Of a stretch of 64,000 bases of DNA, positions 1 through 19,660 are shown in pieces. The first letter of the stretch is position 1. Each line of letters starts with the position of its first letter. A program made the translations under genes and the position numbers. This DNA comes from an uncultured archaeon (GTDB lineage Archaea; Asgardarchaeota; Lokiarchaeia; Sigyniarchaeales; SOKP01), in assembly GCA_964388035.1 (NCBI GenBank), contig CAYLZE010000002.1, positions 34,041-98,040 of the forward strand, written 5' to 3'. A model generated the notes under the pieces. The model made no database searches and had not been told where the DNA came from. It worked only from the letters and a program-made list of their open reading frames with translations.

Positions 1-780
1 TTCTTGATTGATGAGATCAATTTTATGAAGAAAAATAATTAATTTTGCTTTATTTTCCATAGCATGGATTAGTGATTTTATATGATTTACTTCTTGGATT
101 ATATCCTCTTTTTTTGACATCCAAGTTGATATATCAATTAAATATATCACGATCTCCGTATTTTCAAATGCTAAATTTTGCTCTTCTTTATCAGTTAATA
201 AAAAATTCAATTCTTGACCAGCAGAATCAAATATTCCCAATTGAAGATCAAACCAAGAATACACGGTAGGAGTTATGCCTCGCGTGGGTTCCAAAGGATT
301 GAATAATAATTCCTTAGGAGACAATCCTTCAAATACGATTTTTTTGATGGTAGTTTTTCCTGTTTCCGCCCTTCCCAAGAGCAGTAACTTCTTAGCAGTA
401 GACTTTGGCACGAATTTATCTGCATTTTGTAAAAAAAATACTTTTCGAGATTCTCTATCATGTTGAAAAAGATTTTTTGCAAAATTTAATAATACTCTTT
501 TAAGGGTAAATAGATTGGGTTTTTCCTTTTCATGTAACATGAGAATTAAAATCTCATATCCAAATTTAGGAACTCGTGCCTTATCGCAGTAGGAGAGAAT
601 TATTTTATCTTCATAATTAATTTCGATTAATTCTTCAGAATCTTTTTTTTCTCCATAAGAATGAGTCATATATATTTTATTCAAAAGTGTAATACCAATA
701 TTAAATGTATTGGGATATTGTACCTCTAAAATAGCGCCAATTTTATAATCCCAATTAAAAAGTGCTAATCCAATGCTCAT
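1..780 (-). CDS. uDENN/longin-like domain fused to Rag/Gtr-like small GTPase (3'-truncated by window edge)
   Basis: Not in ORF track. Hand translation from ATG at 780 is open to base 1: MSIGLALFNWDYKIGAILEVQYP...KKLLLLGRAETGKTTIKKIVFEG...EPTRGI...IFDSAGQEL...IIFLHKIDLINQE. This gives G1, G2, G3 and Rag-type HKxD G4; paralog of 1417..2385 and 6580..7512. Confidence 0.9.
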   Translation of the reverse strand, partial: MSIGLALFNWDYKIGAILEVQYPNTFNIGITLLNKIYMTHSYGEKKDSEELIEINYEDKIILSYCDKARVPKFGYEILILMLHEKEKPNLFTLKRVLLNFAKNLFQHDRESRKVFFLQNADKFVPKSTAKKLLLLGRAETGKTTIKKIVFEGLSPKELLFNPLEPTRGITPTVYSWFDLQLGIFDSAGQELNFLLTDKEEQNLAFENTEIVIYLIDISTWMSKKEDIIQEVNHIKSLIHAMENKAKLIIFLHKIDLINQE

Positions 781-942
781 GAGCTCATATAAATATTTTT
801 TTGATTTAGAATTTATTATCAATATAAAAATTATTAAATATATTCTTTTATATTTAGATTAACTAAAATAAAAATAAAAAAAGTATAATTTTCATTTAAA
901 AAAAAATTAAAAATTATAATTTTATTTGTGGTAAGTAAAATT

Positions 943-1308
943 ATGGTAAAAAAAGTATATGTTATAGAAGATAATGATAAAAATTTAAAATTATTCAAAG
1001 CGATATTAAATAAAATACCTGGTATTGAATTATACACCGAGACAAGGGGAGATACAGGCTTAGAACTAGTTAAATCAGGAGATCCTGATTTGATTATTTT
1101 AGATATTCAACTTCCCGAAATAAGTGGTATTGATATATGCAAAGAATTGAGAACTCTGGAAAAGTTTAAAGAGATACCTATCTTGGCAGTGACCTCATTT
1201 GCAATGAAGGGTGATAAAGAAAGGATAATGTCAGCGGGCTTTACAAAATACATTTCCAAACCAATTAAAGTTCAAGAGTTTAGAGAAGTTATTCTTGAGT
1301 TTATCTAG
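943..1308 (+). CDS. Single-domain response regulator receiver (CheY/DivK-like)
   Basis: IEDN acidic pocket, PDLIILDIQLP phospho-Asp, AVTSFAM, YISKPI; ATG 943 preferred over GTG 928. Confidence 0.93.
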   Translation: MVKKVYVIEDNDKNLKLFKAILNKIPGIELYTETRGDTGLELVKSGDPDLIILDIQLPEISGIDICKELRTLEKFKEIPILAVTSFAMKGDKERIMSAGFTKYISKPIKVQEFREVILEFI

Positions 1309-1416
1309 TATATAAATATGCTTTAAATTTTATTGTGCTATGGTTTATTTATATACTATAATAATCGATTTTGAACCCTATAATTAATTAAAATTTTAAA
1401 ATAGTAGGTTTGTAGG

Positions 1417-2385
1417 ATGGATTCTAACGAAAATTTTGATGGAAAAAAACTTGTTTCAGATACTTCTAAGAAGCATAATATTAAAAAGAAAGTTTTGTTA
1501 TTGGGTAAACCGGAAACAGGAAAATCAAGTATTAAAAAAGTTATTTTTGAAGGAGTAGATCCAATGGAAATAATCGTTAATCCCTTAACTCCCACGAGAG
1601 GAATCGATCCTTCAGTTCATTCCTGGTTTGATTTAACAATAGGTCTATTTGATACTTCTGGCCAGGAATTGAGGAGTTTATTTTCAGATTCTGCAGAACA
1701 AGAATTAGCATTTCAAAATTGTGATATTATTATTTATTTGTTCGATTATTATCAATGGATTATCGATAAAAAAGAAATATTGGAAGATATAAAGATAATT
1801 TCATTAATTAAAGAAAAGTTAAAGATAAATGCAAGGGTAATAACTTTTTTTCATAAAATAGACTTAATCGAAGTAAAAACGAGAGAAAGCCAAATAAAAG
1901 ACATTAAAAAAATCTTTGACATTCCTATTTATTTTACTAGTGTTAAATATGAATTGTTATACCGTTTATATGAAGCATTTTATGATATTTTAAGTAATTT
2001 TTCTGAAGAAACCTCACGAATTAAGAACATATTGGATGAGAAATTAACCGTATTTCCAAAATCCATGTTTTTTATTACGAATGCAAACAACAATATTGTT
2101 GTCCAAACATCTTCTAAAGATTTTAATTTGTCACACATTAATTATATTCATTATTTAATTGCGATGTTAAATCTTACCTTAGAAAAAATGAGAGCCAACG
2201 ATAAAATTGACCATTTAATCCTTCAAACCCAAAATAATTATAATATTATCATGAAACATTTAGAACTTTTAGATTACAATTTAAAAAGTATTATATGTAT
2301 TTCAGAAACCTTGTCATCTAATAAATTAATCTGGTTAGTAGGAGAAATAGCCTTACAGTTAAATAGTTTTTACCATCTAGAATAA
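1417..2385 (+). CDS. Rag/Gtr-like small GTPase with C-terminal roadblock-like domain
   Basis: GKPETGKS, PTRG, DTSGQ, FHKID, FTSV; about 120 aa alpha/beta C-terminal extension as in Rag GTPases. Confidence 0.88.
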   Translation: MDSNENFDGKKLVSDTSKKHNIKKKVLLLGKPETGKSSIKKVIFEGVDPMEIIVNPLTPTRGIDPSVHSWFDLTIGLFDTSGQELRSLFSDSAEQELAFQNCDIIIYLFDYYQWIIDKKEILEDIKIISLIKEKLKINARVITFFHKIDLIEVKTRESQIKDIKKIFDIPIYFTSVKYELLYRLYEAFYDILSNFSEETSRIKNILDEKLTVFPKSMFFITNANNNIVVQTSSKDFNLSHINYIHYLIAMLNLTLEKMRANDKIDHLILQTQNNYNIIMKHLELLDYNLKSIICISETLSSNKLIWLVGEIALQLNSFYHLE

Positions 2386-2437
2386 TATTAAGCTTGTAAA
2401 AGACCCGTTATTATAAAAGGTTTGAGATTATCTCCAG

Positions 2438-3730
2438 TCATCTTTTCCTTTTTAATTCTCGAAATTCTTGGATTTTGGAACGTATTAAGGCTTTTTTTTG
2501 TATGAGTGTTAAATCCATGGAATTTATCAATTCCTCTAATTTTTCCCGATATTGTTCAACATTTAAATTTAAATCAAAAATTTCATCTAGAGGATTCTGT
2601 TTTTGGCTTTCGCCATCTTTTAAGTTATCTTTTCCAATAACAGGATTCTTATATACTTCAAATCTAATTTTGTTGTCTTTAACTTGGATGTTTTTAGGAT
2701 CCAAGAGCCTATCAATAAATTTCATGAGAAAGTTCTTTAATATGGGTTTAAGATCATTTATCCAAGCAATACCATCTAATTTTTTATATTTTTCTAAATC
2801 TTCCCTTTCTCTTAATTCACTAGAGATTAACATTTTTAAATAGCTTTCTTGATATAAGGGTTTAAAATTATCTGTTAATCCCGTGAGAATATCTTCAGTT
2901 AGACTTTGAACTAAAACATCGATTATTTCAGGATACTCATAGAATTGACCGAATTTAAAATAAGAATTAAGGAATTGCTCAATGGATTTCTCCAACTCTT
3001 TTGGTTCCAAGGTTCCTTTTTTGATTAGAAAGGTTTTTATTATTCTCTCGAGTAGAGTACCCCTAAATTTTCCGTCATATTCAGTTGTATCAACATTAAT
3101 TGCTGGGAGCGAGTTCTTTTTCCTTATATTATCCTTTCTTGAATAAAGAATATTAACATAATCTTTAACGATCACATTTGAAAGCCCCATTCTTAATGTT
3201 ATAATATTAATATGCAATGGCTCATCTGACGAAGATTGGGGATAATTTTTTTCATATTTATTCAATATATCTTCAATCTTTAAAACTTCCGCAACATAAT
3301 CATTGAAAAAAATTTCATAAAGTGCAGCAATTTCATATTCCTTGATTTCTTTTTCTAATAATTTTCTTAAAAAACGATCATAATTTAAGAAAAAACAAGA
3401 GATACAATCATCAATAGCGAGTGCTAAATCATCATTCGGATAATTAGTTTGTACTAGATATTTCTTATATTCAAGTCGAATTTTTTGAGCGCGAATCCAT
3501 TCTAAAGTAAAATCGAATATTTCCCTATTAAAAGTTAATTTATTCTCAAAATGTCTAAGAATTTCAAGAACTTCATGAGATGTCGTGCCAATAGATTGAC
3601 TGCTTAAAAATTTAGCTGCTAATTGAAGATTGCTGAGGTTTTGAAATTTTTGTTTCATCCTATGATAATAGGATGCTAATCTTTCCTCATCTATGGTAAA
3701 TAAATTGTCTACTTCTTCTTGTTCTGGCAT
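2438..3730 (-). CDS. Hypothetical, predominantly alpha-helical protein
   Basis: 430 aa ORF, last of a co-oriented run starting at the Rab-like gene; no motif recognised. Confidence 0.8.
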   Translation of the reverse strand: MPEQEEVDNLFTIDEERLASYYHRMKQKFQNLSNLQLAAKFLSSQSIGTTSHEVLEILRHFENKLTFNREIFDFTLEWIRAQKIRLEYKKYLVQTNYPNDDLALAIDDCISCFFLNYDRFLRKLLEKEIKEYEIAALYEIFFNDYVAEVLKIEDILNKYEKNYPQSSSDEPLHINIITLRMGLSNVIVKDYVNILYSRKDNIRKKNSLPAINVDTTEYDGKFRGTLLERIIKTFLIKKGTLEPKELEKSIEQFLNSYFKFGQFYEYPEIIDVLVQSLTEDILTGLTDNFKPLYQESYLKMLISSELREREDLEKYKKLDGIAWINDLKPILKNFLMKFIDRLLDPKNIQVKDNKIRFEVYKNPVIGKDNLKDGESQKQNPLDEIFDLNLNVEQYREKLEELINSMDLTLIQKKALIRSKIQEFRELKRKR

Positions 3731-3768
3731 GATTTTTTACAATATGCGCCCATTAAAGTTTACCATTT

Positions 3769-4809
3769 CTAATTTTTATTGTCTAACAACATGTTAATCT
3801 GATTAAGATCGGCATCTGATATTAGGTTCCATCCAAAATCTGAGAAGTTAGTGTTGAATACTTTTAAATTATGCTTCATTTGTTCATCATTATCTAATAT
3901 GGTCCTTACCTTTTTTTGATAAAAGATTATATCGGTAATTTCTTCAAAATCGACATTCTTCAGGGGAATTAAAATACATCCTATACTTCGTTTTATACCT
4001 TCCTTTACGCAGAAATCTTCAATATATAATACTTCTTTTTCTTTTAAGGTTAGATCAATTTGGCGAAGGTTAGGAAAAATACCTTTTTTATCAAATATGA
4101 TTAAGGTATCATTTAGCAAATTTTCATAATAATCGGGTAATATTGCCATCACGTAAAAGGAAGGAATGAGATCTAAAATTTGTCTTCTTATTGAATCCTC
4201 TGTCTTAAAAGTGTATAATTTCGAACTTTTTATATTTTCACCAATTTTCCTTTCAATTAATCCGATACAATAATAAGTCCTCTTTTCTTTCCAATAAATC
4301 TTTCTCGAAGAACCGAGATAATATTCCATTAAATGTAATCCTCTGATTAATTCTTCCTTAATCAATTTTTCCCGACTATAATTACCCTCTGAAAGCTTAA
4401 AGTTGAAATATATTTCTTGAATTATGCTAGGATGGACATATTCTCTTAACTTTTGAAATAATATTTTTAAATCTTCAGTATAAGAAGAGCCGACTAATGC
4501 AAATAAATTTGTTAGTTCTCCTTTCTTAGATTCAATTGTCGAATTCAAAGCGAAAAAAGTTTGTAATACATCAGCATTAATTGTACCTTTTTGTTTTAAT
4601 GAAATTGAATATTCGATAAAATCTATTTTCCAAGAACCCTCCTTTCCATTAGCGGCAGTCATAAAAATTGGTCCTAAATATTGAAATGGAAGCATTTTCA
4701 ATTTACTCTTTTGTTCAATTGTTAATTCTTCTTCATATTTAATCTCCTCAAAAACGAGGTTAGATTCATCCGAAAAGAATAAGGCTAATATCGTATTCGA
4801 TTCATTCAT
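3769..4809 (-). CDS. Hypothetical protein, possibly two tandem longin/uDENN-like domains
   Basis: 346 aa ORF; beta-beta-alpha-beta-beta-beta-alpha pattern appears twice by eye (fold is inference). Confidence 0.6.
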   Translation of the reverse strand: MNESNTILALFFSDESNLVFEEIKYEEELTIEQKSKLKMLPFQYLGPIFMTAANGKEGSWKIDFIEYSISLKQKGTINADVLQTFFALNSTIESKKGELTNLFALVGSSYTEDLKILFQKLREYVHPSIIQEIYFNFKLSEGNYSREKLIKEELIRGLHLMEYYLGSSRKIYWKEKRTYYCIGLIERKIGENIKSSKLYTFKTEDSIRRQILDLIPSFYVMAILPDYYENLLNDTLIIFDKKGIFPNLRQIDLTLKEKEVLYIEDFCVKEGIKRSIGCILIPLKNVDFEEITDIIFYQKKVRTILDNDEQMKHNLKVFNTNFSDFGWNLISDADLNQINMLLDNKN

Positions 4810-4916
4810 TTTCTTATGAAATAATACATGATGTTTTTTTTAAGAGTTTTTAATCAAATAATAAACTCAAAATTATTTAATTTAAATTTTAGGGATATTA
4901 TTTTCGTTTATATATA

Positions 4917-5762
4917 TTAAATTAATATAAATTGTTTTATTAGAAATGGTTCAAGATTTAAATGTCGGATTAATATCCAGTTATTGAATATGTAATGGAA
5001 CACCTTGCTCATACGAAAATATTTTATAGTTAAATCCTCACCTAATTGATTTTTCATTATATTAATAATCTCAGTAAGTAAATTAACCAGAAAAACTTTC
5101 ACTAGCAGGGGATCACATTTAGTTGGATTAATTTTAAAAATATTAATACCTTTCTCTCTTTCAAAATATAATTTTTGTAGTTCTGGATCGTCTTTTACCT
5201 CAGATTCATTTTTAAATGTATTAAAGAATTCCTCAACTTTTTGATAAATTTCTTCTTTTTGCCTCTCTGAGATATAGGATATCAAAATCTTTTGAATTAA
5301 ATTAAATAATTGTTGAAAAATTCCGAGAAGATCATAAAAATCAGCTAAAACATTCATAATTTCTGCGTCTTCCCATTGAAAATAAATTTTTTCAATTATT
5401 TGATTAAATTTATCATAAATTCTAAGATTTCCATCCCATTGTTTTCCTTTTGTTTTCCATATCTCTTCGAATTCCTTAATAAAGCTATCTTTAATTGTAC
5501 TTAACCTTGCTCTCAAAATGTATGCGGTTATGTCTTTCGTATCCGCAGCAATATATAATAAATCATGTTCCGCATCTAAGATATATATCCAACGTAATCC
5601 CGCCATTTCAATAGATTCTATTGGTTGTTGAAATTCAACCATCGTAAACTGATTAAATGCCGATAATAATCCGCTTAGGAGTTCATTATTAACTGTAATT
5701 TTCATAAATGATTTATATAGTAACTTTAAACCCGAAGAACTTTCAATAATCCATACATTCAT
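4917..5762 (-). CDS. Longin-domain protein with helical C-terminal domain
   Basis: N-term VWIIESSSGLKLLY...LLSGLLSAFNQF...IESIEM...LLYIAAD...IKDSFIKEF...WDGN, typical of Asgard longin domains. Confidence 0.8.
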   Translation of the reverse strand: MNVWIIESSSGLKLLYKSFMKITVNNELLSGLLSAFNQFTMVEFQQPIESIEMAGLRWIYILDAEHDLLYIAADTKDITAYILRARLSTIKDSFIKEFEEIWKTKGKQWDGNLRIYDKFNQIIEKIYFQWEDAEIMNVLADFYDLLGIFQQLFNLIQKILISYISERQKEEIYQKVEEFFNTFKNESEVKDDPELQKLYFEREKGINIFKINPTKCDPLLVKVFLVNLLTEIINIMKNQLGEDLTIKYFRMSKVFHYIFNNWILIRHLNLEPFLIKQFILI

Positions 5763-5785
5763 TTTTTATCTTCTCTATCGACTTA

Positions 5786-6301
5786 TCATTGATAAATTTC
5801 TTTCTCACGGTTAAGAATTTTTTTAGTGAGAGATTCGAAAGCTTCTGAGACATTTATGCCATTTTTAGAAGATACCTTCTTATATTCAAATAGATTATGT
5901 TTCTCCATTAGTGAATTCGGAACCTGATCCTCAACCGAAATTTTTTCTTGAAGGTCTAATTTTGAACCAATAAAAATAATCGGGAGTTTCTTATCATACA
6001 TCCTGCAAATTTCGACCCACTCACCTATATTTTCTAATGTGTCCCTACGGGTCAAATCAAATACAATTAGAGCCCCTTTCGCACCCAATGCATATCTTTT
6101 AAGTAAATGGCGAAAATGTTCTTGTCCTCCAAAATCCCATAACTGGAGCATGATATGTAATTCATTAATATCTAATTCTTTAATAATAAATTCTACTCCG
6201 AGAGTAGTCTGTGTATGAGAGAGAAAGATGCCTTTCACATATCTATTTAATAAGGTAGTTTTCCCGACACCCTCATCTCCAGCTGTAATTATTTTTAACA
6301 C
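5786..6301 (-). CDS. Rab-like small GTPase
   Basis: GDEGVGKT, TLGVEF, LWDFGGQE, GSKLD, VSSK; no C-terminal Cys prenylation motif. Confidence 0.93.
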   Translation of the reverse strand: MLKIITAGDEGVGKTTLLNRYVKGIFLSHTQTTLGVEFIIKELDINELHIMLQLWDFGGQEHFRHLLKRYALGAKGALIVFDLTRRDTLENIGEWVEICRMYDKKLPIIFIGSKLDLQEKISVEDQVPNSLMEKHNLFEYKKVSSKNGINVSEAFESLTKKILNREKEIYQ

Positions 6302-6579
6302 AATGGACGTGTTTAATTCCTCTCTTTATTTTTTTACATTTTTATTAAAACAAATAGAATTATTTTGGTGAAGCTCATTTTTTAAAAATCTTGTGATTTG
6401 ACTCTACTTTTAATGATATAAGGGATTTTCCTATTATTTGCGTAAATGAAAATGTATATATACATTTTTTTTTATTATATTTTTGTAGTTTTTATGACAA
6501 TTATATATATAAAAAAGGAGTATTAATTATTTTTCTACTTTTAATCGATAATTGATTTAAAAAAAAATATTTAAAAATT

Positions 6580-7512
6580 ATGCGCAGAAAAATATGTTTG
6601 ATAGGGAGAGCGGGAACAGGAAAAACAAGTATTAAAAAGGTGTTATTTGAAGGAATAGAGCCTAAAAACATCATGCTTCATTCACCTGAACCCACCCGAG
6701 GTATTGAAATAAATATTTATGATTGGTTAGATCTTGAGGTAGGACTTATTGATACATCGGGGCAAGAGTTATCTTTTTTCTTAGAAAACAAGGAAGAAAA
6801 AAATCAAATTTTTGAAAATTCAAATATAGTATTATATCTCTTGGATTACCCCACATGGACATTTAAATCAACTGAAATTATAAAAGAGATTAAAAAGGTA
6901 TATAATATTCTTAAGGAAGAATATCCAAATGCCCAATTAATTATAATCTTTCATAAAATTGACTTAATAAATCAGAAAATTGACGGAAATTACCAAAACT
7001 ATCGAGATTCATTGTCTTCACAATTAGAAATTCCTGAAAAAATTAAAATATTTTTTACAAGTATTCATCCAGAATTAATATTTAGCTTATTTAATGCAAT
7101 TTCAGAAATATTAGCCACATTATCCCAAGAGACAAAAGTAATGAAGGATATATTAGATAAATTTTTATTAAATGTAGCGCAAACGATATGTATCATTATA
7201 AATACTGATAATAGCATTTTAGTCCAATCCTTTACACCAGATTTTGATACTAAAATAGTTTATTCCATTCAACGAAAATTACATTCTTTCATTCAAAGTC
7301 TTGAAATATCGCTAGAAAAAGAATATGTCATATGTTTTATAGATTGCGGAAGAAAAGTTTTAAGAATAATTTTAGGAGATATTCACAGTTTAGATCCATG
7401 CTTGGGTAAATTAATTTGTTTATCTGAAGATTTTGATAGAGAAAAGATAATTATGTTATTTCAAAAAATTAGAAACAATTTGAGAACAATTAAAATAGCT
7501 AATAATAAATAA
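6580..7512 (+). CDS. Rag/Gtr-like small GTPase with C-terminal roadblock-like domain
   Basis: GRAGTGKTSIKKVLF, PTRG, DTSGQ, FHKID, FTSI. Confidence 0.88.
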   Translation: MRRKICLIGRAGTGKTSIKKVLFEGIEPKNIMLHSPEPTRGIEINIYDWLDLEVGLIDTSGQELSFFLENKEEKNQIFENSNIVLYLLDYPTWTFKSTEIIKEIKKVYNILKEEYPNAQLIIIFHKIDLINQKIDGNYQNYRDSLSSQLEIPEKIKIFFTSIHPELIFSLFNAISEILATLSQETKVMKDILDKFLLNVAQTICIIINTDNSILVQSFTPDFDTKIVYSIQRKLHSFIQSLEISLEKEYVICFIDCGRKVLRIILGDIHSLDPCLGKLICLSEDFDREKIIMLFQKIRNNLRTIKIANNK

Positions 7513-7521
7513 TAAAGGGAC

Positions 7522-8571
7522 GTGAAAGTGCTAAGACAAGTATACATCATAAAAAATGAATCGGTTTTAATAAAAAGAATCTATGGAAAAGGGTTAAATG
7601 ATAATGAACTTGAGACTGCTTTGGGTGATTTGAAAAAGGAAAGAATTTCAAAAGTACGTAATGAAATGGGATTTTTCACATTTTTTAAATATAAATTATC
7701 TTTTCTCATTGCAAAAGAGCATGAGTTAATTTTTATATTAATTACGGGATTAGGTGATAGCATAGATAGAATTAAGACAGAAATATTGAAACTGAAAAAT
7801 AACTTTTTAAATTATTTTTCCGAGATTATAGATAATTCTATTGATCAAAAAACGTTAGAAGTTTTTATTCCATTTTTAGATTCCATTCATAGAAATTTAA
7901 AGCCCAAGATTTCTCTCGTAGGATTTTCGGGAGTTGGGAAAACGACAATAACGAACTTAATTAAAGCTAAGGAAATTCCTATTGAACACATTCCTACTAT
8001 TACGGGTGATGTTGCTACCATTAAAATTGGAAAATTAGAATACTTATTATGGGATTTCGCAGGGCAAGAGCAATTTAGTTTCTTATGGAATAAGTTTATT
8101 CAAGGAAGTGATGCAATCTTAATAATTACAGATTCTACTCTTATGAATGTAGAAAAAAGTAAGTTCTTCTTGGAATTAATTAATGAAGAAGCCCCTTATT
8201 CCCATGTCGCTGTAATAGCAAATAAACAAGATTTACCTGATGCTTTGAAAACAGAAAATATTGAACAAATCATGGGATTGAAAACGTACTCTATTGTGGC
8301 TATTGATCCTAATAATAGACAAAGAATATTCAACATAATAGCTGATGTTTTAGAAATGAGCGCACAAATTTCTCCTCTTCTAAGTCCTTTGTTACAGAGA
8401 GATGAGTTGCTCGCTAAAGCTGAAAAAGCTTTAGAAGAAGATAGATTGAAAGAAACCATAGAAATATTTCAAAAGATATCTGATCTTTGCATTGAACTAG
8501 GGGATGATACGTTAGCCACTGAATTTTACCAAAAATCAATGATTTTTAAAAGTCATCTTGAATCGTTTTGA
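7522..8571 (+). CDS. Longin-Arf-like GTPase fusion with C-terminal helical hairpin
   Basis: About 125 aa N-terminal longin-like domain, then GFSGVGKT, IPTI, WDFAGQ, ANKQDLPDA (Arf-type), then helical tail. Confidence 0.88.
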   Translation: MKVLRQVYIIKNESVLIKRIYGKGLNDNELETALGDLKKERISKVRNEMGFFTFFKYKLSFLIAKEHELIFILITGLGDSIDRIKTEILKLKNNFLNYFSEIIDNSIDQKTLEVFIPFLDSIHRNLKPKISLVGFSGVGKTTITNLIKAKEIPIEHIPTITGDVATIKIGKLEYLLWDFAGQEQFSFLWNKFIQGSDAILIITDSTLMNVEKSKFFLELINEEAPYSHVAVIANKQDLPDALKTENIEQIMGLKTYSIVAIDPNNRQRIFNIIADVLEMSAQISPLLSPLLQRDELLAKAEKALEEDRLKETIEIFQKISDLCIELGDDTLATEFYQKSMIFKSHLESF

Positions 8572-8590
8572 ATAAAATTAAATGGAATTC

Positions 8591-9145
8591 TTAATTTAAC
8601 TGACCCGACAATTGCATCATTTTATGAGCAATTGATGCAAATAAAGTTTCCACATTTTCTCCTGTTTTAGAAGAACATTCGATAAAATCATATAGATTAT
8701 GTTCTTTCCCAAATTTTCCGGCATATTCTCTTTCAATAGATCTTTTTCCTTCATTTTCCAAATCCAGCTTTCCTCCTACTAATAAAATTGGAAAAGATTG
8801 TTCTTGGAACTCTTGGTTTTTATTAATGACCTTTAGCCAACTTTCTAAATTCTTTAAACTTGAGAACCTAGTAATATCAAACATGAAAACACCTCCAGAA
8901 GCACCAATCACGTAATTAGGTAAGAGTGATTTAAATTGTTGCTCTCCGGCAAAATCCCATATTTGAAGTTGGGCTTTTTTTCCTTCAATTTCAACGATCT
9001 TGGTATAAAACTCGACACCAATAGTCATTTGAAAATTATCTCGGTATTTCCCTGTGACGTACCGATTTACTAATGTTGTCTTTCCTACTCCACCATCTCC
9101 GAAAATACACGTCTTATAGCGGAGAAAGTCCTTTTGATCGTTCAA
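8591..9145 (-). CDS. Rab-like small GTPase
   Basis: GDGGVGKT, TIGVEF, LQIWDFAGE, GGKLD, ECSSKTG; TTG start; no prenylation motif. Confidence 0.93.
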   Translation of the reverse strand: MNDQKDFLRYKTCIFGDGGVGKTTLVNRYVTGKYRDNFQMTIGVEFYTKIVEIEGKKAQLQIWDFAGEQQFKSLLPNYVIGASGGVFMFDITRFSSLKNLESWLKVINKNQEFQEQSFPILLVGGKLDLENEGKRSIEREYAGKFGKEHNLYDFIECSSKTGENVETLFASIAHKMMQLSGQLN

Positions 9146-9210
9146 TTTTTAGACCTTTTTTTTTTAAATTATAATTATATTGTTTGTATTAAAACAGAAA
9201 CAATCATTAT

Positions 9211-9546
9211 TTATTTTTTTACTAGCTTATTAATTTTTTCTTGTAAAAGAATGTTCTCATCCCTTAATCTTTCAATTTCTAACATTAAAGTATTAGTTAT
9301 CAATAATACTTGTTCTTTAGAAAAAATATCATCATCTGCCAGCTTTTTAGTTTCCACGCCCCTTATTTCTAAATTTTTATCAAGATACAAGGTGGTTAAT
9401 ATATCTTTTAATTCTCCGTGTAAATAAACATAGGGAAATGGAAATTCGGATTGATTCTTAATTATGGATTTCTGAAGCATTATTTCGTGAATAGCATTAC
9501 AATAGGGACATTTGTAATTTCTTGAAATACAGCTTTTTTGATCCAT
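9211..9546 (-). CDS. Small CxxC protein with C-terminal coiled coil
   Basis: CPYC...H, FPFPYVYLHG...TTLYLDKNLEIRGVE, heptad-like tail; co-oriented with the Rab-like gene. Confidence 0.75.
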   Translation of the reverse strand: MDQKSCISRNYKCPYCNAIHEIMLQKSIIKNQSEFPFPYVYLHGELKDILTTLYLDKNLEIRGVETKKLADDDIFSKEQVLLITNTLMLEIERLRDENILLQEKINKLVKK

Positions 9547-9862: not shown

Positions 9863-10099
9863 ATGTTAGTAACAGATCGTTATAAATATATCTGGAATGA
9901 TGGAGATTTGGACGAGTTGCATGAATTAAAAGAGGACCCATTTGAGATGAATAATATCATCAATGTTCAAGCATATGAAGTTATATTGAAAGAAATGAGA
10001 AAACGCTTGGAAATATGGCGAAAAAAGACGGGGGTTGATATCACCTCCGAAATGATTAAGGGAAGGAAATTAAAGAGAAAAATACCAAATCATTATTAG
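9863..10099 (+). pseudogene. C-terminal remnant of a sulfatase-like hydrolase
   Basis: RMLVTDRYKYIWN...DELHELKEDPFEMNNI resembles the sulfatase C-terminal ELYDLxxDPxE motif; no catalytic N-terminal part upstream. Confidence 0.7.
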
Positions 10100-10530: not shown

Positions 10531-11937
10531 TCACATTTTTAACTCCTTTAGTTTAATGACATTTTCGTCCATTTCTTCGGGTGTAATTTTATAGAGCAAG
10601 GAAAAAACTATAACTCCAATTCCCAAAATAATTATTGGAAAAATGCCCACTTGAATCCGTAATCCTATTAACTGTTCGGGTGTATTGTTACCTTGAGGAT
10701 TGTAATTGAAAAATGTTTGAACAATCCAAAAAATACCCGACTGAATTGCTATCGATATGCGAGAAAAGAAAATCCATGTTCCTCGATAAAGTCCTTCGCG
10801 CCGAGATCCCGAATTAATGGTGGCTTTATCTACCACGGATGAAAAGAGCGGCCACGTCATGGTAATAATGGCTCCATCCGCGGTTCCCGCAGCAAGAAAT
10901 CCGATAATTACGATGGGAATTCCGGATACACCTACAGGAATAAACAGAAATAACAACATGATGCTTCCTAAAATGATTCCTCCAATCATGACGGTTCTTT
11001 TTATCCCAAGTTTAAAAGAAGCTTTGTACCAAAACGGAGTTGCTACGATCACCGCAAGAATATAGAAAAGCACGAATAGTTCTCCAATTTTGGAAAGTTG
11101 GAGGAAATCTCTTACCACAAAGGGTAAAGAGGCCATAACAAGGCCCATGCAGCTCGAATAACATACAAAAAAGAACATATGCCCCAAGAAGTTTCTGTCT
11201 GTCAATGCCGTCTTCATGTTACCAAAAAAAGGTTCAGGTTTTTTATCTTTCTCCATTTGTAATCTCCGATCTATCATTTCTTTATCCTCTCTCACCCCTG
11301 GAATCATTCCTATCATGGCTCCAACTGCAATGATTGCAATTATTATCGACATGTAAGTGTATCCAATTTCTGTCCCATATGTTTCTATTATTAACACAGG
11401 CACTAGCACGCCCGTGAGGATTCCGAATGTCTCAAGGTATGTTTCTAAGGTACCCGCAATTCTCCTATCTTTATTATGACGGAATTTGTCGGGAAAAAGC
11501 GCATATCGATTAATATCATAGAGCGAGAAGAATGTGTCCATCAAGCATTGGGAGAGAAGAAACCATAGAAATACGGTCGATTGTCCTGCTTGAGCAGCTT
11601 TAGGAGCAGTATAGATAATAATTACCATGAAACAATACGGAATGGCGCCCGTGATGATAAACGGAAATCTTTTACCCCATTTTTTGACAAATCGAGTTGA
11701 TCTATCGCAAAAATAGCCCATGATTGGGTCATTAAACATGTTGAAAAGCATGTAGATTACTTGTGCAATAAAGTAGAACGTGATGGCAATCCCTATTTCG
11801 CTCTGATAATAAAAAGCTAATTGCTGTGAATACATCTGACTCATCATCAAGTTTACAAAATTCCCCAGCTGAAAGCTGGCAAGGATCTTTTTTGAATACC
11901 GTTTAATATCCGCTTTCCCTAATTCTTCTTTTTCCAT
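10531..11937 (-). CDS. GPH/MelB-family MFS transporter
   Basis: About 12 TM; NDPIMGYFCDR...WGKRFPF and RREGLYRG motifs. Confidence 0.92.
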   Translation of the reverse strand: MEKEELGKADIKRYSKKILASFQLGNFVNLMMSQMYSQQLAFYYQSEIGIAITFYFIAQVIYMLFNMFNDPIMGYFCDRSTRFVKKWGKRFPFIITGAIPYCFMVIIIYTAPKAAQAGQSTVFLWFLLSQCLMDTFFSLYDINRYALFPDKFRHNKDRRIAGTLETYLETFGILTGVLVPVLIIETYGTEIGYTYMSIIIAIIAVGAMIGMIPGVREDKEMIDRRLQMEKDKKPEPFFGNMKTALTDRNFLGHMFFFVCYSSCMGLVMASLPFVVRDFLQLSKIGELFVLFYILAVIVATPFWYKASFKLGIKRTVMIGGIILGSIMLLFLFIPVGVSGIPIVIIGFLAAGTADGAIITMTWPLFSSVVDKATINSGSRREGLYRGTWIFFSRISIAIQSGIFWIVQTFFNYNPQGNNTPEQLIGLRIQVGIFPIIILGIGVIVFSLLYKITPEEMDENVIKLKELKM

Positions 11938-12213
11938 ATTTACTACGTTTTTTATTTTTAATTTTTAATTGAATATGTTGTTTTTAGCTTGGAAAGTATT
12001 AAAAACTTTGCCTTGGATTTTTCTTGTTTAAAGTAAAATCAAGTGAGATCGCAATTTAAAAAAGAATTTTTTTACTTTCTCATATTAAAGGGATTCAAAT
12101 AACATAATAATATTTTTGTATATTAGAATGCTATTGTGATAAGATTAATAAACTAGTAATATCAATTTAAATAACAATAACTAATCTATAATAAAAAATG
12201 GGAATTAAATAAT

Positions 12214-12948
12214 ATGGGAATTGAAGCTTTAACGGATATAGAGATATTACAAGGCAGTTTTACCTTGGTGTTTGTGATAATCTCAATTTTACTGGGCTTG
12301 ATCATTCTTTCTAAATATTTTTCGTTAAAAAAGCAGGAATTCATCTATGTGGGTTTAGCTTGGGTTTTTCTTAGTTCCGGATGGTGGGGAAGCTCGTTTT
12401 CCTTTCTCTCGATTCTTCTCATTGGTGTTGCATTTTCTTCATCTTTATTTATTCTAATTGCTAATGTCTTCATTCCGATCGCAATAATTTGTTGGATGAA
12501 TGCTATTGGAATACTCATGTTTAAAGAACAAAAGAAGAAGATCAATATAATTACCTTGTTAATCTGTATCCCTTATGATGTCGTTATTATAATACTACTT
12601 TTCATCGATCCTCTTTTGTTAGGAGAAATTAAGCAATCATTTTATTATCAACCCGCTCTGCTTCCATTGATCTTTCAGATTTGTGCACTTTTAGTTACTA
12701 TTTCTACGGGAATATTATTTTCAGTGCGATCCATGAAAACTAGTGATCTCTTGGTGAAATGGAAAGCAAAATTTTTATTAATAGGATTCATATCATTCAC
12801 AATCGGTGCGTTTATTGATGCAACCATCGCCATGGGTGCGTTATTACTTGTCTTAGTGAGACTCATCCTAATTTTTAGTGCGTTGATGTATTTCTTAGGA
12901 TTCTTGCTTCCCGATAAGATTGCTAAACTTTTAATCGCTGAAAAATAA
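12214..12948 (+). CDS. 7-TM membrane protein (stand-alone sensor-like domain)
   Basis: Seven hydrophobic segments, no soluble domain; T-rich tract follows stop. Confidence 0.8.
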   Translation: MGIEALTDIEILQGSFTLVFVIISILLGLIILSKYFSLKKQEFIYVGLAWVFLSSGWWGSSFSFLSILLIGVAFSSSLFILIANVFIPIAIICWMNAIGILMFKEQKKKINIITLLICIPYDVVIIILLFIDPLLLGEIKQSFYYQPALLPLIFQICALLVTISTGILFSVRSMKTSDLLVKWKAKFLLIGFISFTIGAFIDATIAMGALLLVLVRLILIFSALMYFLGFLLPDKIAKLLIAEK

Positions 12949-13156
12949 TAATTTTATTTTTTTCTTTCTTTTTTATTTACATAAATTGCGGTTTCCTAAA
13001 TTTATCACTTTTTATTGCAAGAATTATTTCAAATAAAAGGTTCTAAAATGGAGTGTTTCTAAGTTGGAATTTATTACAATATTTGAAAGTTATAGAAATT
13101 AAATAATTAAACTTGCTTTCATTTTGTCAATATTAATAATAGAAAAATTAAGAGAA

Positions 13157-14089
13157 ATGTCAGAATATAATTTAAAGACCAAAATGAATGATTGGGGACC
13201 GTGGGGTGAAAAAGAATCTCGTTGCCTCATTTTTTCCGTTGGTAATCCAAATGAAGGACACGGATATGCTATTCCACGGAATATTGACGATTTACACGCT
13301 AAAAAAGCATCCTATGATCTTGAATTTCACACGGGGCAACGTTACATAGCACATATTCCTTATACTACGGATAGATGTGGTTCCGTAGCAAAAGATTGGT
13401 CTCCCTCTTACATACCATTTGAGGAATTCTTGCAGAAATCCATTGATTTTATGAAGTATCATATTAATTTCATTAGAGAGCGTGGAGAGGACATCTCGTT
13501 AATAATGTTAATCACGGGTCATGGTGGAAATGCTCAGATTTTGGAGAGAAAAAATCAAAAACTCATTCAACAAGAATTAGGAGTAAAAAAATTTATTTCA
13601 AATACCGCGTTAGTTGATAGGAGAGATGCGGGAAGAGTTCTAGAAAAAGTAAAAAAGCTGGCAATAAGCGTGATAGATACTCAAGGTTCTCGATTTGGCA
13701 TCAATTCGGCTGAGAATTTGGCAGATCTTTACACTAAGATTCTTCTTTCGGCAGGTCATGCAAGTCATGCGGAGCATAGCCTTGCTGCTGCATTAAACGT
13801 GTTAGATTTGAAAAAGGTGGAAGTAATGAATGAATTATTAGAAAAGAATTTTGAAGCCGCACTTCGAAAGTGGCCCCCTATTGGCGGACTTGGTGGGTAC
13901 TTATTACTCGGAGGGAAGTATACCGAAGCGTTGGGAACTGAGGATAATGATAAATTCGGTTTATGGAATTGTCTTAAGGGCTTAAGAAATTTAAATAGAG
14001 GAAAGTTAATCATCGCTCCCGAACTCGGCCATCTCATCCATCAATTAAGTGTGGAAATTAAAACAGAGATCATAAATAAGTACATTTAA
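13157..14089 (+). CDS. Creatininase/ArfB-family amidohydrolase
   Basis: EGHG...IDD, GHGGN, GHASHAEH metal ligands; ATG 13157 matches paralog N-terminus. Confidence 0.8.
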   Translation: MSEYNLKTKMNDWGPWGEKESRCLIFSVGNPNEGHGYAIPRNIDDLHAKKASYDLEFHTGQRYIAHIPYTTDRCGSVAKDWSPSYIPFEEFLQKSIDFMKYHINFIRERGEDISLIMLITGHGGNAQILERKNQKLIQQELGVKKFISNTALVDRRDAGRVLEKVKKLAISVIDTQGSRFGINSAENLADLYTKILLSAGHASHAEHSLAAALNVLDLKKVEVMNELLEKNFEAALRKWPPIGGLGGYLLLGGKYTEALGTEDNDKFGLWNCLKGLRNLNRGKLIIAPELGHLIHQLSVEIKTEIINKYI

Positions 14090-14137
14090 TCATAACATTA
14101 GAAGGGTTTATCACAAAATAAAAAAAAGCGTGAGAAG

Positions 14138-15070
14138 ATGGAATATTTAAATCTAAAGGGAAAAATGATGAATTGGGGCCCTTTCGAGGAGAATGAATCG
14201 AAATGGTTAATCTTTTCCGTGGGTAATCCCAATGAAGGGCATGGACCCGCAATTCCAAGAGCCACGGACGATTTTCTAGCTAAAAAAGCGGCATATGATC
14301 TTGAATTTCATACTGGGCAACGCTATGTAGCTCATATTCCTTTTACCACGGATAGTGTAGGGGTTGTTGCTAAAGATTGGTCTCCTGCTTACATTCCTTG
14401 GGAAGATTTTTTTACAAAAACGATTGAATATTTGAAATATCACATTAATTTGATTAAGGAAAGAAATGAAGATGTTTCGCGAGTATTATTAATAAATGGA
14501 CACGGAGGGAATCGACAACTCTTCGAAAGAAAAAATCAAAAGGCAATCCAAAAAGAATTAGGTGTGAGTACCTTTCTCGCTGTTACAGCCTTAGTCGATA
14601 GAAAAGATGCTGCGCCCGTCTTAGAAGAAGTTAAGATAGTTGCCAATAAAATGATCGAAACTAAAGGGAATAGATTTGGATGTTCAACTTCAGAAGATCT
14701 TAATGATTTTTACACCAAACTCTTATTATCAGCAGGACATGCATCCCATGTGGAACATTCTCTGATGGCAGCATTAGGCATGTGCGACATGCAAAAAATC
14801 GAAGTAATGAACAAAGTATTGGCGAGTGATTTTGATCAAGCTTTCAAACTCTGGCCTCCGATAGGAGGGTTAGGAGGGTACCTTTTAGCGGGAGGAAAAT
14901 ATCTGGAAGCATTAAAAACCATCGCTCCGAATGAAGCAGCCCTATGGAATTGTTTTAATGGATTAAAGACCTTGAATCAGGGTAAATTGATTATTGCACC
15001 AGAATTAGGAGAGCTCATTTTCAAAATTAGTTTGGAGAAAAAAACCGCTTTAATCAAAAAATATTTATAA
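14138..15070 (+). CDS. Creatininase/ArfB-family amidohydrolase, tandem paralog
   Basis: EGHG...TDD, NGHGGN, GHASHVEH; colinear with upstream gene. Confidence 0.8.
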   Translation: MEYLNLKGKMMNWGPFEENESKWLIFSVGNPNEGHGPAIPRATDDFLAKKAAYDLEFHTGQRYVAHIPFTTDSVGVVAKDWSPAYIPWEDFFTKTIEYLKYHINLIKERNEDVSRVLLINGHGGNRQLFERKNQKAIQKELGVSTFLAVTALVDRKDAAPVLEEVKIVANKMIETKGNRFGCSTSEDLNDFYTKLLLSAGHASHVEHSLMAALGMCDMQKIEVMNKVLASDFDQAFKLWPPIGGLGGYLLAGGKYLEALKTIAPNEAALWNCFNGLKTLNQGKLIIAPELGELIFKISLEKKTALIKKYL

Positions 15071-15129
15071 TTATTAAGGAAAAAAGGAAAAGAAGGGATT
15101 AAATTAAAAAAAAGAAAGATTGTTTCTTT

Positions 15130-16173
15130 TTATTCTACTGATTCTGGTGTTGGTTTTAAAGCGTTCGCCTTTTCATTTTTATGCAATTTCATGTAGTAAT
15201 TCATCCCATAAAACGCTAAAAATATCATTAGTGGGACGAAAAGGATAAAAACGGCTATATTCTTGAAAAGGCTTGCTTCCATATTTGGAAGTGCTTCAGC
15301 AAATCGGAACGATGCCGTGCTAAACATCAACCATAGAAGAATTGTATCCCATTTGAATATTCTGAGCTTGCTTGCCAGTAGCTCTGATTGTTCTCCGAGA
15401 AGGTTACCAAAACTATTTAATATTAGTATGAGGTTCCCGATGAAAATGACCACCGTTATAGCCATAGCGTAACCACTTCCATCATCAGGTTGTAATGCCG
15501 ATGTTATGCTATACATTTGATAGCCAGCATATACGGCAACCCCCAAGAAGAAGACTCCTATCCAAGAATTGAACGCACCACGCAAATTGAGAATTCCAGT
15601 GACAACCGCTAGAATGATAATAGAGATGATTAATATCCATGCAATGCCATACGGATTAAAGGTAGTTTCATCAATCGTATATCCCAATAAATTATGCAGG
15701 ACAAAAGCCGTTCCATAAATTATTGCTATTGAAATAACGGTTCCTCCTAAAAAAATACTCCATTGCGAGAATTCTTTAACTCCTCTTGGTAATTTATTCG
15801 TTCCATCATAAATTTTCACACCGGTCTTGTAACACGTGTACATGGTAAAAAATGCCGTAAGAAAAATGTAGGAAATAAAGGATACGTAAAAGAGATAAAT
15901 GCCTATGTAAAAGAGAATAATGATAAATGGGAGCGTAATAATTACATGTAGAAATATTCGCTTATTGCTAAATTGATCGACAGTTTTTCTAGTAAATAAA
16001 GAGGCGAAGAAGAAAATGAGACAAATTGCCATTAAAGGAAGGAATATTATTACGCTAACGAGGGGAGGCAAGAATTCATTTACGGTAAATCCAATCAATG
16101 TCCATATGACCAATATCAGATAGATGTTGTTTTTTCCTTGTGTTAACTTTTTTAAGTTTGAAAAACTACTCAT
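15130..16173 (-). CDS. Multi-pass membrane protein of unknown function
   Basis: 347 aa, roughly 10 hydrophobic segments. Confidence 0.8.
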   Translation of the reverse strand: MSSFSNLKKLTQGKNNIYLILVIWTLIGFTVNEFLPPLVSVIIFLPLMAICLIFFFASLFTRKTVDQFSNKRIFLHVIITLPFIIILFYIGIYLFYVSFISYIFLTAFFTMYTCYKTGVKIYDGTNKLPRGVKEFSQWSIFLGGTVISIAIIYGTAFVLHNLLGYTIDETTFNPYGIAWILIISIIILAVVTGILNLRGAFNSWIGVFFLGVAVYAGYQMYSITSALQPDDGSGYAMAITVVIFIGNLILILNSFGNLLGEQSELLASKLRIFKWDTILLWLMFSTASFRFAEALPNMEASLFKNIAVFILFVPLMIFLAFYGMNYYMKLHKNEKANALKPTPESVE

Positions 16174-16483
16174 GAAACTATAATAAAATTATCTTTATTT
16201 AAAGATTCACCAAAATTACCCTCGACCATGCTAATAAAGAAAAAAAAATTTGTAGGAATTTTGACAATGTATTTAGAAAAATAGAAATTTCACCTCACGC
16301 TACGAGATTTTTATTATCATGAGTTTCATTTTAATCATTTTTTTGATTTTCTCTATAATGCCATTGAATGATTGATTAAGAAAAAAACTATATTGTATCT
16401 CCTTGTCTAAATTTTTTGACTTGTATTGTAAAATATTCTTGTTAAAAAGTTATTTAAAACCGTGATGACAAACAAAATTTGAG

Positions 16484-17044: not shown

Positions 17045-17319
17045 AAATATCTTAAAATACTTAATTTTATAAAATTACTTTTTTTTCCTTAATATTCTCG
17101 ATAGAAAAAGATCTAAACAAAACTTATCTCCATGTTATTTTATAATGATCCAAGCGGAAATTTGAGGGAAAGTTTTAGTATAAAAAGGTAAAGGTAAAAA
17201 GAAAAAAATAAGACCGAGGGGTTCAAAAAATTAAAAAAGTTACTAAGTTATAAATACATCAATAGATAATTCCTTTTTAAGTGTGAATTATAATTATATT
17301 TTTTATAAAATCAGAAAGT

Positions 17320-18117: not shown

Positions 18118-18161
18118 TTGGTTGCTTAATTTGATAAAAAAAAGGGATTAAGAGTAATATT

Positions 18162-19391: not shown

Positions 19392-19660
19392 AATACTGAT
19401 AATAATTTCAATTAATTTTTTGTATTAATTAAAATAAATCAACGAATAATTATATATTCTTTAGACGAGTTTGTTCTAAAACGATATCGATTGCGAATCA
19501 ATTAGTTAGAATTAATGTTCTTTAGAAAAATAATTAATTTTCTCAGTAGGGAAAATTCTCCCCATAATTAAAAGAAACTTAATTGATTTGGGGAAAATGG
19601 TAAATTGGCTGTTTGAAATTATCATTTAATCTTATAATAATAATAAAAAAATTGTTTTTT

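What the first reader, a model, noticed from the sequence alone, without database searches (positions are those of the whole stretch)
1..9546. Six-GTPase signalling island: Rag-, Rab- and Arf-like GTPases clustered with longin/DENN-like partners (candidate proto Rag-regulator module)
Seen: within 9.5 kb there are three Rag-like GTPases (HKID G4, PTRG, DxxGQEL), two Rab-like and one Arf-like. They lie in tight co-oriented units (Rab-longin-ORF-ORF; Rag-longinArf 9 bp apart; CxxC-Rab) with no metabolic gene in between. Known: eukaryotic Rags heterodimerise via roadblock domains and are regulated by longin/DENN proteins (Ragulator, FLCN-FNIP, NPRL2/3), and Asgard archaea encode these domain classes. 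Inference: this is a physically linked GTPase circuit with its own GEF/GAP/scaffold candidates, which gives testable partner assignments.
Basis: partly seen in the sequence, partly recalled or inferred. Interest (0 to 1): 0.88.

Follow-up and report, generated by a model that had tools for sequence, protein, structure and literature searches.

The report
Asgard GTPase cluster beside sensor kinases
A Loki-type Asgard archaeon packs six eukaryote-like small GTPases into 9.5 kb; the part kept across its relatives is a Rag-like GTPase pair tied to bacterial-style sensor kinases and a receiver protein, while the other GTPases are dispensable add-ons, so this looks like a kinase-to-GTPase signalling module rather than an ancestral version of the eukaryotic Rag regulators.

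Summary
In detail: three Rag-like, two Ras/Rab-like and one longin-Arf-like GTPase lie among 11 genes. The cluster runs past the window edge: 8 GTPases in 13 genes (shuffles: at most 4), next to seven histidine kinases.

The six-GTPase unit is not conserved as a whole. In 42 relative loci the kept core is Rag1 plus a second Rag-like gene (adjacent in 36), the receiver (32) and kinases (34); 40 of 42 have a two-component gene, against a 9% background. Cultured MK-D1 has the core too.

Rag2 and Rag3 are lineage-specific duplicates of Rag1. The right-hand units are two-gene cassettes that only sometimes sit here, and a congener has lost most of them. No in-window longin has the FLCN/NPRL2 GAP signature; the candidate that does lies 14 kb upstream, fused to a histidine-less kinase hairpin. 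Rag3-longinArf binding got weak prediction support only.

Best reading: a GTPase arm of a two-component system with accreted paralogues. The general idea is in print (Liu 2020), and this scan has already found the core on other genomes. Nothing is bench-tested.

The parts
1..780 (-). Rag1, 5' part: longin-like domain + Rag-type GTPase + roadblock (440 aa; continues to G000:C2:33498). Core gene of the conserved module.
   Evidence: PF04670 E 8e-25; best PDB sequence hits Gtr1/RagA; AF2 pLDDT 80, longin topology at residues 1-122; VIA Z 21.9 to LokiRagO 8yl2 over residues 129-429; G1-G5 invariant or nearly so in 40 orthologues
928..1308 (+). Stand-alone CheY-like receiver (RR126), divergent from Rag1. 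Core gene.
   Evidence: Response_reg E 9e-24; phospho-Asp59, Thr89 and Lys111 invariant in 34 of 34; present in 32 of 42 Rag1 loci, directly upstream in 23
1417..2385 (+). Rag2: GTPase + roadblock without longin; duplicate of Rag1 (48% identical)
   Evidence: PF04670 E 2e-18; nested in the Rag1 clade, sister to the congener's copy; at this locus only in the same genus
2438..3730 (-). ORF430, unknown protein, always paired with ORF346
   Evidence: No Pfam, PDB or Atlas hit; adjacent to ORF346 in all 29 other loci examined
3769..4809 (-). ORF346: N-terminal longin-like domain plus a second alpha/beta domain of similar strand-helix order
   Evidence: AF2 pLDDT 84; the top 14 VIA rows are all longins, best Z 7.4 (Mon1-Ccz1 complex, rmsd 3.7, 141 aligned); NPR2 leads in the Atlas; found only in this family among 81 genomes
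4917..5762 (-). ORF281: N-terminal longin-like domain + unknown C-terminal part
   Evidence: Weak Fuz_longin_1 hits in 4 of 21 homologues, best E 0.0075; profile match to the longinArf N-domain, E 1e-4 over 88 columns; follows a Rab-like gene in one other locus of 29
5786..6301 (-). Ras-like (RasL, 'Rab-like') GTPase, 171 aa, no C-terminal cysteine
   Evidence: Ras E 5e-41; motifs
6580..7512 (+). Rag3: GTPase + roadblock without longin; derivative of Rag1 (40% identical), operonic with longinArf
   Evidence: PF04670 E 1e-24; tree; short Rag with longinArf in 24 of 27 loci
7522..8571 (+). Longin-like domain + Arf-like GTPase + helical tail (349 aa)
   Evidence: Arf E 7e-21; best PDB hits 8oun and Arf proteins; weak predicted complex with Rag3
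8591..9145 (-). Second Ras-like GTPase, 184 aa; G3 reads DFAGE (catalytic Gln replaced); no C-terminal cysteine; 39% identical to the first
   Evidence: Ras E 3e-45
9211..9546 (-). CxxC...H..H small domain + coiled coil (111 aa), no known family; operonic with the second Ras-like GTPase
   Evidence: C13, C16, H20, H43 invariant in 19 homologues; paired with this GTPase in 8 of 29 loci; the pair lies within 10 kb of Rag1 in 4 of 42 loci; only coiled-coil hits in Pfam and PDB

Best explanation
The island is the right-hand end of a roughly 36-kb signalling neighbourhood of a Promethearchaeota (Loki) archaeon. Its conserved core couples soluble PAS/GAF histidine kinases and a single-domain receiver to Rag-family GTPases. 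SHOWN: gene content, conservation of the neighbourhood in many different gene orders, intact catalytic motifs, Rag fold. INFERRED, step by step: (1) the kinases phosphorylate RR126 on Asp59; (2) the 214-aa protein upstream (folliculin-like longin with GP motif and invariant DxARG, fused to a kinase dimerisation hairpin without its histidine) docks on a kinase or the receiver and acts as GAP for one of the Rag-like G domains; (3) Rag1 and its operon partner RagU2 associate through their roadblock/longin domains, and their nucleotide state is the output, possibly through the winged-helix-like segment of RagU1/RagU2. The rest of the window (Rag2, Rag3-longinArf, CxxC-RasL, RasL-ORF281, ORF346-ORF430) is a set of accessory cassettes. 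They arose partly by local duplication of Rag1, come and go, and probably extend or tune the core rather than forming a fixed six-GTPase machine.
For: Of 42 Rag1 loci, 40 have a two-component gene within 10 kb, 36 have RagU2 directly downstream and 18 have the longin-pseudoHisKA gene. Background is 9.3% of genes in this genome and 2 of 27 short-Rag loci. 20 different core gene orders occur among 22 long loci, so proximity survives rearrangement. The same set lies in 21 kb of the closed MK-D1 genome, from another family, with 3 of its 4 best-scoring HisKA genes. The adaptor's D78, A81, R82, G83 are invariant in 19 of 19; its MK-D1 copy just passes the Pfam Folliculin cut-off. Rag2 and Rag3 nest in the family's Rag1 clade (SH-aLRT 98). 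The congener lacks Rag3 and the CxxC gene, has a 5'-truncated ORF281 and a frameshifted RagU1. Published precedents for kinase/receiver-GTPase coupling: PMC4316618; bioRxiv 2020.10.19.343400.
Against: No interaction, phosphotransfer or GAP activity is measured. The genomes are kin, so the counts are not independent. The module is patchy: the adaptor was found in 37 of 101 genomes and in 15 of 39 high-quality ones. Loki-B35 and FW102 keep RagU2 and a Rag1-like gene together without kinases within 10 kb, so kinases are not obligatory partners. The island has unusually low GC (27.6%, lowest 1% of the genome), which also fits a variable region that collects genes. The winged-helix call rests on the sequence pattern and one weak hit (E 0.08).
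Confidence: 0.58

Rival explanations
1. No functional coupling: a variable low-GC region where signalling genes pile up by tandem duplication and inherited linkage; kinases and GTPases work independently.
For: All five Rag-like genes of the island are each other's best hits in the genome; decay and deletion in the congener; low GC; patchy presence; most cassettes sit elsewhere in most relatives.
Against: Linkage persists through many rearrangements and across families to MK-D1, where Rag1 is only 27% identical. A single-copy longin-pseudoHisKA fusion joins the two domain worlds in one polypeptide and travels with the cluster.
Confidence: 0.2
2. One reading: the 11 genes form one Rag/Rab/Arf circuit whose longin neighbours (ORF281, ORF346, the longins of Rag1 and longinArf) are its GEF/GAP/scaffold, a forerunner of Ragulator, FLCN and GATOR1.
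For: Longin-like folds in ORF346, ORF281 and longinArf. Cassettes recur near the core: CxxC-RasL in 4 of 42 loci, short Rag-longinArf next to Rag1 or kinases in 4 of Rag3's 5 nearest relatives, a CxxC homologue directly upstream of RagU2 in Loki-B35 (E 6e-7). ORF346-ORF430 has a Rab-like gene close by in 8 of 29 other loci. Rag3-longinArf complex score 0.32 against best control 0.01; runs agree in at least 60% of contacts, partner pLDDT at least 67; the mark was reached by 58 of 80 solved and 2 of 110 mismatched pairs, but at 0.60 or under by only 7 of the 80 and by both mismatches, so it is weak. A roadblock/LAMTOR3-like gene lies near Rag1 in 12 of 42 relatives.
Against: The full set occurs in no other locus examined; ORF430/346/281 are beside Rag1 only in the congener. 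No GP motif plus invariant arginine in the in-window longins (Rag1 loop: R in 26, K in 12 of 40). No stand-alone roadblock in the island. Rag2 and Rag3 post-date the family's origin, so they cannot mirror an ancestral RagA/RagC split.
Confidence: 0.13
3. Conservon-like wiring: the kinases control the GTPases by direct contact, as in actinobacterial CvnA-D, and the receiver is a side branch or phosphate sink.
For: Kinases converge on or precede the Rag1-RagU2 operon in 34 of 42 loci; roadblock and winged-helix-like domains are fused into the GTPases; conservons lack a receiver and are thought to use the GTPase as output (PMC4316618).
Against: The receiver is strongly conserved (64-76% identity, invariant phospho-site) and is present in four copies in the MK-D1 cluster.
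Confidence: 0.09

Closest known systems
Eukaryotic Rag/Gtr GTPases (RagA/B-RagC/D, Gtr1-Gtr2) with Ragulator, FLCN-FNIP and GATOR1
   Same: G domain with HKxD G4 and TSI G5 followed by a roadblock domain; best PDB sequence and fold hits; a folliculin-like longin with arginine finger in the wider cluster.
   Different: Rag1 has an extra N-terminal longin; the paralogues are lineage-specific duplicates; no Ragulator subunits in the island; partners are histidine kinases and a receiver.
Asgard Rag-like GTPases: LokiRagO (PDB 8YL2, homotetramer), LokiRagM (8ZLA, monomer), and the MK-D1 Rag-like architectures of Tran et al. 2024 (PMC10933270)
   Same: Same fold (Z 21.9 to 8yl2); longin-GTPase-roadblock, GTPase-roadblock and longin-GTPase architectures and one operonic Rag pair are already described.
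   Different: Tran et al. state that MK-D1 GTPase genes generally do not lie in operons with longin/roadblock genes and that partners are hard to assign from genome layout; this neighbourhood is an exception that names partners. Solved Asgard Rags are homo-oligomeric or monomeric, so heterodimers cannot be assumed.
Asgard NPRL2-like longin fusions to two-component domains, and the LAMTOR1-Rab-DENN operon (Liu et al., bioRxiv 2020.10.19.343400)
   Same: Proposes growth control centred on two-component systems with eukaryote-like regulators; the longin-pseudoHisKA protein is of this kind.
   Different: The passages read describe domain fusions and a different operon; a conserved kinase-receiver-Rag gene neighbourhood was not found in them or in the paper searches.
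Actinobacterial conservons (CvnA-D, AGPS), Myxococcus MglA-MglB-RomR, and Group 1 Rup systems (PMC4316618, PMC13343842)
   Same: Small Ras-superfamily GTPase plus roadblock coupled genetically or physically to a histidine kinase or response regulator.
   Different: The GTPases here are Rag/Arf/RasL types with fused regulatory domains, not MglA or Rup; kinases are mostly soluble PAS/GAF proteins; gene order is fluid; the putative GAP is an FLCN-type longin.

Membership tests
Rag/Gtr GTPase family | Rag-type G domain (PF04670 above cut-off; HKxD, TSI) | tested here: met
Rag/Gtr GTPase family | C-terminal roadblock domain | tested here: met
   Rag1 model aligns over residues 129-429 to 8yl2, RagC and Gtr1; Rag3 and Rag2 C-domains are homologous to Rag1's
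Rag/Gtr GTPase family | Obligate RagA-type/RagC-type heterodimer | tested here: inconclusive
   In-window Rags are family-level duplicates (no eukaryotic rows in the tree); the Rag1-RagU2 complex was not modelled
Ragulator/EGO scaffold | Stand-alone roadblock subunits encoded with the Rags | tested here: not met
   None among the 11 genes; a Robl_LC7/MAPKK1_Int gene is nearby in 12 of 42 relatives but on another contig here
Ragulator/EGO scaffold | LAMTOR1-like lipid-anchored wrapping subunit | not tested
   No search made
FLCN/NPRL2/SMCR8 GAP longins | GP motif in the first loop plus invariant arginine finger, in-window proteins | tested here: not met
   Rag1 loop Arg only 26 of 40; no such motif pair in the ORF281, ORF346 or longinArf alignments; signature as defined in PMC12290439
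FLCN/NPRL2/SMCR8 GAP longins | Same signature in the upstream 214-aa protein (G000:C2:19847-20491) | tested here: met
   GP invariant in 5 of 5; DxxARG invariant in 19 of 19; Folliculin Pfam E 0.002 here and 6e-5 in MK-D1
FLCN/NPRL2/SMCR8 GAP longins | GAP activity on a Rag or Arf | not testable with these tools
   Needs an assay
DENN proteins | Longin followed by core DENN and dDENN regions | tested here: inconclusive
   No DENN Pfam hit; ORF346's second domain was barely tested by the fold search; ORF281 and ORF430 were not folded
Rab GTPases (eukaryotic) | C-terminal cysteine prenylation motif | tested here: not met
   No Cys in the last 10 residues of either protein; Asgard RasL are not sister to Rab (bioRxiv 2024.02.28.582541)
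Arf family / Asgard ArfR | Arf-type G domain | tested here: met
   PF00025 E 7e-21; best PDB hits 8oun and Arf proteins; placement in ArfR versus ArfL not tested by a tree
Arf family / Asgard ArfR | Short N-terminal amphipathic helix with myristoylated Gly2 | tested here: not met
   Replaced by a 125-aa longin-like domain
Conservon / actinobacterial G protein system | Fixed operon of kinase, roadblock, CvnC and MglA-type GTPase, without a receiver | tested here: not met
   Rag-type GTPases, conserved receiver, variable order
Asgard LAMTOR1-Rab-DENN operon (Liu et al.) | Stand-alone roadblock + Rab-like GTPase + DENN protein in one operon | tested here: not met
   No stand-alone roadblock in the island and no DENN hit

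The most novel reading that the evidence does not exclude
Loki archaea run a nutrient-sensing pathway in which histidine kinases (in MK-D1 one carries a family-3 solute-binding domain, a type that often binds amino acids) switch Rag-family GTPases through an FLCN-type arginine-finger GAP tethered by a dead kinase hairpin. This genome has extended it into a Rag-Arf-RasL cascade, including a Rag-Arf heterodimer in which the Arf's longin replaces the one Rag3 lost. That would be a working prokaryotic precursor of Rag/FLCN signalling with a phosphorelay in place of TOR.
Probability: 0.2. Interest if true: 0.88.

Novelty: new variant of a known kind. Interest (0 to 1): 0.55.

Why it matters
Asgard genomes hold dozens of orphan small GTPases (82 here) whose regulators cannot usually be assigned from gene order. 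This neighbourhood names a short list of partners for Rag-family GTPases, and the core exists in the cultured strain MK-D1. That makes a published but untested idea directly testable: that Rag/FLCN-type signalling first served two-component systems before TOR existed. The window itself adds a natural experiment in how the module grows by duplication and sheds parts, and three untested cassettes (short Rag + longinArf, CxxC + RasL, ORF346 + ORF430).

Tried and rejected
- Whole-island synteny: no other locus holds the six-GTPase set.
- An early reading that the kinase link is confined to one family (0 of 11 distant Rag1-like loci) was rejected: the pattern scan had missed the true MK-D1 locus.
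- Contig C29 has several Rag-like genes but is not a duplicate island.
- ORF430: no Pfam, PDB or Atlas hit.
- ORF346: Foldseek gave nothing at E 0.001 or better; an internal repeat was not detectable by hhalign.
- Profile comparisons among most longin-like domains were not significant, except ORF281-N with longinArf-N; Pfam did not recognise the N-domains of Rag1 or longinArf.
- CxxC protein: only coiled-coil hits; one search was circular and was redone.
- Promoter and terminator scans were at chance level.
- Sequencing runs: no RNA holder listed.
- Paper searches for an Asgard Rag/two-component gene cluster or for LokiRag found nothing; subscription papers are not covered.
Full report
OBSERVATION. 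Window 1-9546 holds 11 genes. Pfam assigns three to Gtr1/RagA, two to Ras and one to Arf, and finds a stand-alone receiver at 928-1308; four genes have no family. The window is G000:C2:34041-98040, and relatives are Promethearchaeota (Lokiarchaeia). The first Rag is cut by the window edge; orthologues put its start at ATG 780, giving 440 aa. Upstream lie two more Rag-like genes, RagU1 (302 aa) and RagU2 (510 aa, overlapping Rag1's end), and then about 27 kb with seven histidine kinases, several receivers, another Rag/Arf-like gene and a 214-aa longin-HisKA-like protein. The genome has 82 small GTPases among 4828 ORFs. Eight in 13 consecutive genes exceeds all 1000 shuffles (maximum 4), although duplication inflates this: the five Rag-like genes are each other's best hits.

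WHAT THE PROTEINS ARE. The Rag1 profile's best PDB hits are Gtr1 and RagA (E 6e-20). Its model (pLDDT 80) aligns over G domain plus roadblock to the Asgard LokiRagO structure (Z 21.9, rmsd 4.6, 279 aligned) and to RagC and Gtr1; residues 1-122 have longin topology. Rag2 and Rag3 lack this N-domain. The Arf-like G domain matches 8oun and Arf proteins. Its N-domain and that of ORF281 are homologous (E 1e-4) and belong to a family of about 30 small domains in this genome, with weak Fuz longin hits. ORF346 folds confidently (pLDDT 84), and its first domain gives only longins in the top 14 rows, though at modest Z (7.4). ORF430 and the CxxC protein remain unassigned. Neither Ras-like protein has a prenylation cysteine, so 'RasL' is safer than 'Rab'. 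None of the in-window longins has the GP motif plus invariant arginine that marks GAP longins (PMC12290439); Rag1's loop arginine is kept in only 26 of 40. The upstream 214-aa protein has both marks, and its kinase-like hairpin lacks the histidine.

Among 42 loci with a close Rag1 homologue, RagU2 follows directly in 36, the receiver is present in 32, a kinase in 34 (28 of 30 loci longer than 11 kb), some two-component gene in 40, and the longin-pseudoHisKA gene in 18. The background is 9.3%; short-Rag loci give 2 of 27. Core gene order differs widely (20 orders among 22 long loci). These genomes are kin, so no p-value is claimed. Prompted by an earlier scan note, I checked the closed genome of cultured MK-D1: positions 2,076,179-2,096,754 hold three kinases, four receivers of this type, RagU2 (38%), a Rag1-like gene (27%, motifs intact), a further Rag/Arf-like gene and the adaptor (53%). 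Loki-B35 and FW102 keep RagU2 and a Rag1-like gene with a RasL but no kinase within 10 kb. The adaptor is single-copy and patchy: 37 of 101 genomes in three families.

THE RIGHT HALF behaves as separate cassettes. Short Rag with longinArf occurs in 24 of 27 loci, mostly elsewhere, but four of Rag3's five nearest relatives sit next to Rag1 or kinases (group support only 81). CxxC with RasL184 occurs in 8 of 29 loci and near Rag1 in 4 of 42; a CxxC homologue abuts RagU2 in Loki-B35. ORF346 and ORF430 are always adjacent and have a Rab-like gene close by in 8 of 29 other loci, but lie beside Rag1 only in the congener. ORF281 follows a Rab-like gene in one other locus. In the G-domain tree, Rag2 and Rag3 nest inside the family's Rag1 clade (SH-aLRT 98; quick tree, no mixture model, no eukaryotic rows), consistent with duplicates that lost the longin. 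The congener has a frameshifted RagU1, a 5'-truncated ORF281 and none of RasL171, Rag3, longinArf, RasL184 or CxxC at this locus; Rag3 and CxxC were not found anywhere in its 96%-complete genome. The island's GC (27.6%) is in the lowest 1% of the genome.

INTERACTION. The mark was reached by 58 of 80 solved and 2 of 110 mismatched pairs, but at 0.60 or under by only 7 of the 80 and by both mismatches. This is weak support.

MECHANISM (inferred). Kinases phosphorylate the receiver (Asp59 invariant in 34 of 34). The longin-pseudoHisKA adaptor links kinase or receiver state to GTP hydrolysis by a Rag-like protein through Arg82. Rag1 and RagU2 probably associate, and their nucleotide state is the output. 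The other cassettes are optional extensions.

COMPARISON AND NOVELTY. The protein architectures are published (PMC10933270; PDB 8YL2, 8ZLA), as are longin fusions to two-component domains and the idea of two-component-centred growth control in Asgards (bioRxiv 2020.10.19.343400). Kinase- or receiver-coupled small GTPases are known in bacteria (PMC4316618). I found no paper describing this kinase-receiver-Rag neighbourhood, but the library is incomplete. This scan has reported the core on several other genomes; those notes are not independent support. The system works like a conservon or MglA-RomR circuit built from Rag-type parts; it is not a member of those families, nor a Ragulator/FLCN/GATOR complex. 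Verdict: real, partly reinterpreted, a new variant of a known kind, interest 0.55.

Noticed in passing
L001:6988-9465 (G000:C2:31028-33505, just upstream of the window): Two more Rag-like GTPases, RagU1 (302 aa) and RagU2 (510 aa), both with a winged-helix-like segment after the G domain; RagU2 is Rag1's conserved operon partner.
   Followed up: yes
L002:15807-16451 (G000:C2:19847-20491): Single-copy folliculin-like longin with GP motif and invariant DxxARG, fused to a histidine-less kinase hairpin; the best GAP/adaptor candidate of the cluster.
   Followed up: yes
L187:12179-14233 (MK-D1 chromosome 2,076,179-2,078,233): The kinase at the edge of the MK-D1 cluster carries a family-3 extracellular solute-binding domain (SBP_bac_3, E 7e-11), a possible amino-acid input.
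   Followed up: partly
window 1-780, Rag1 switch I: The arginine after the G2 threonine (PTRG) is invariant in 40 of 40 family orthologues but replaced in distant ones and in many short Rags; it may be a built-in catalytic or regulatory residue.
   Followed up: partly
L022:8199-8654; L023:11797-12855; G000:C66:3522-4859 and 9168-9422: In relatives a roadblock/LAMTOR3-like gene (12 of 42 loci) and a coiled-coil protein with a possible N-terminal longin (19 of 42) flank the receiver; in this genome both are on another contig.
   Followed up: partly
window 6301-6325 (- strand): The 171-aa RasL may start at an ACG codon three codons upstream of the GTG (GAGG 8 nt before it), which would match the N-termini of its paralogues.
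   Followed up: no
window 9863-10099: 78-codon remnant matching only the C-terminal end of several ~500-aa proteins of this genome (sulfatase-like by eye, not confirmed by a family hit); marks the island's right edge.
   Followed up: partly
G000:C1:135922-139438 and C12:24234-26311: Two paralogous ORF346-ORF430 pairs; the C1 copy has a truncated ORF430 and lies near a RasL, an arrangement kept in several relatives.
   Followed up: partly
G000:C103:3534-4028: A 164-aa roadblock-looking gene directly precedes the closest longinArf paralogue, in the position that the short Rag takes here.
   Followed up: no
L002:10683-11827 (G000:C2:14723-16106): Short fragments resembling neighbouring kinase, receiver and GTPase genes: decayed duplicates inside the two-component cluster.
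   Followed up: no
window 10531-21007: Ordinary genes follow the island: a GPH-family symporter, an alpha/beta hydrolase-like protein, an ArgE/DapE-like peptidase and a SAM methyltransferase; order is shared with the congener.
   Followed up: partly
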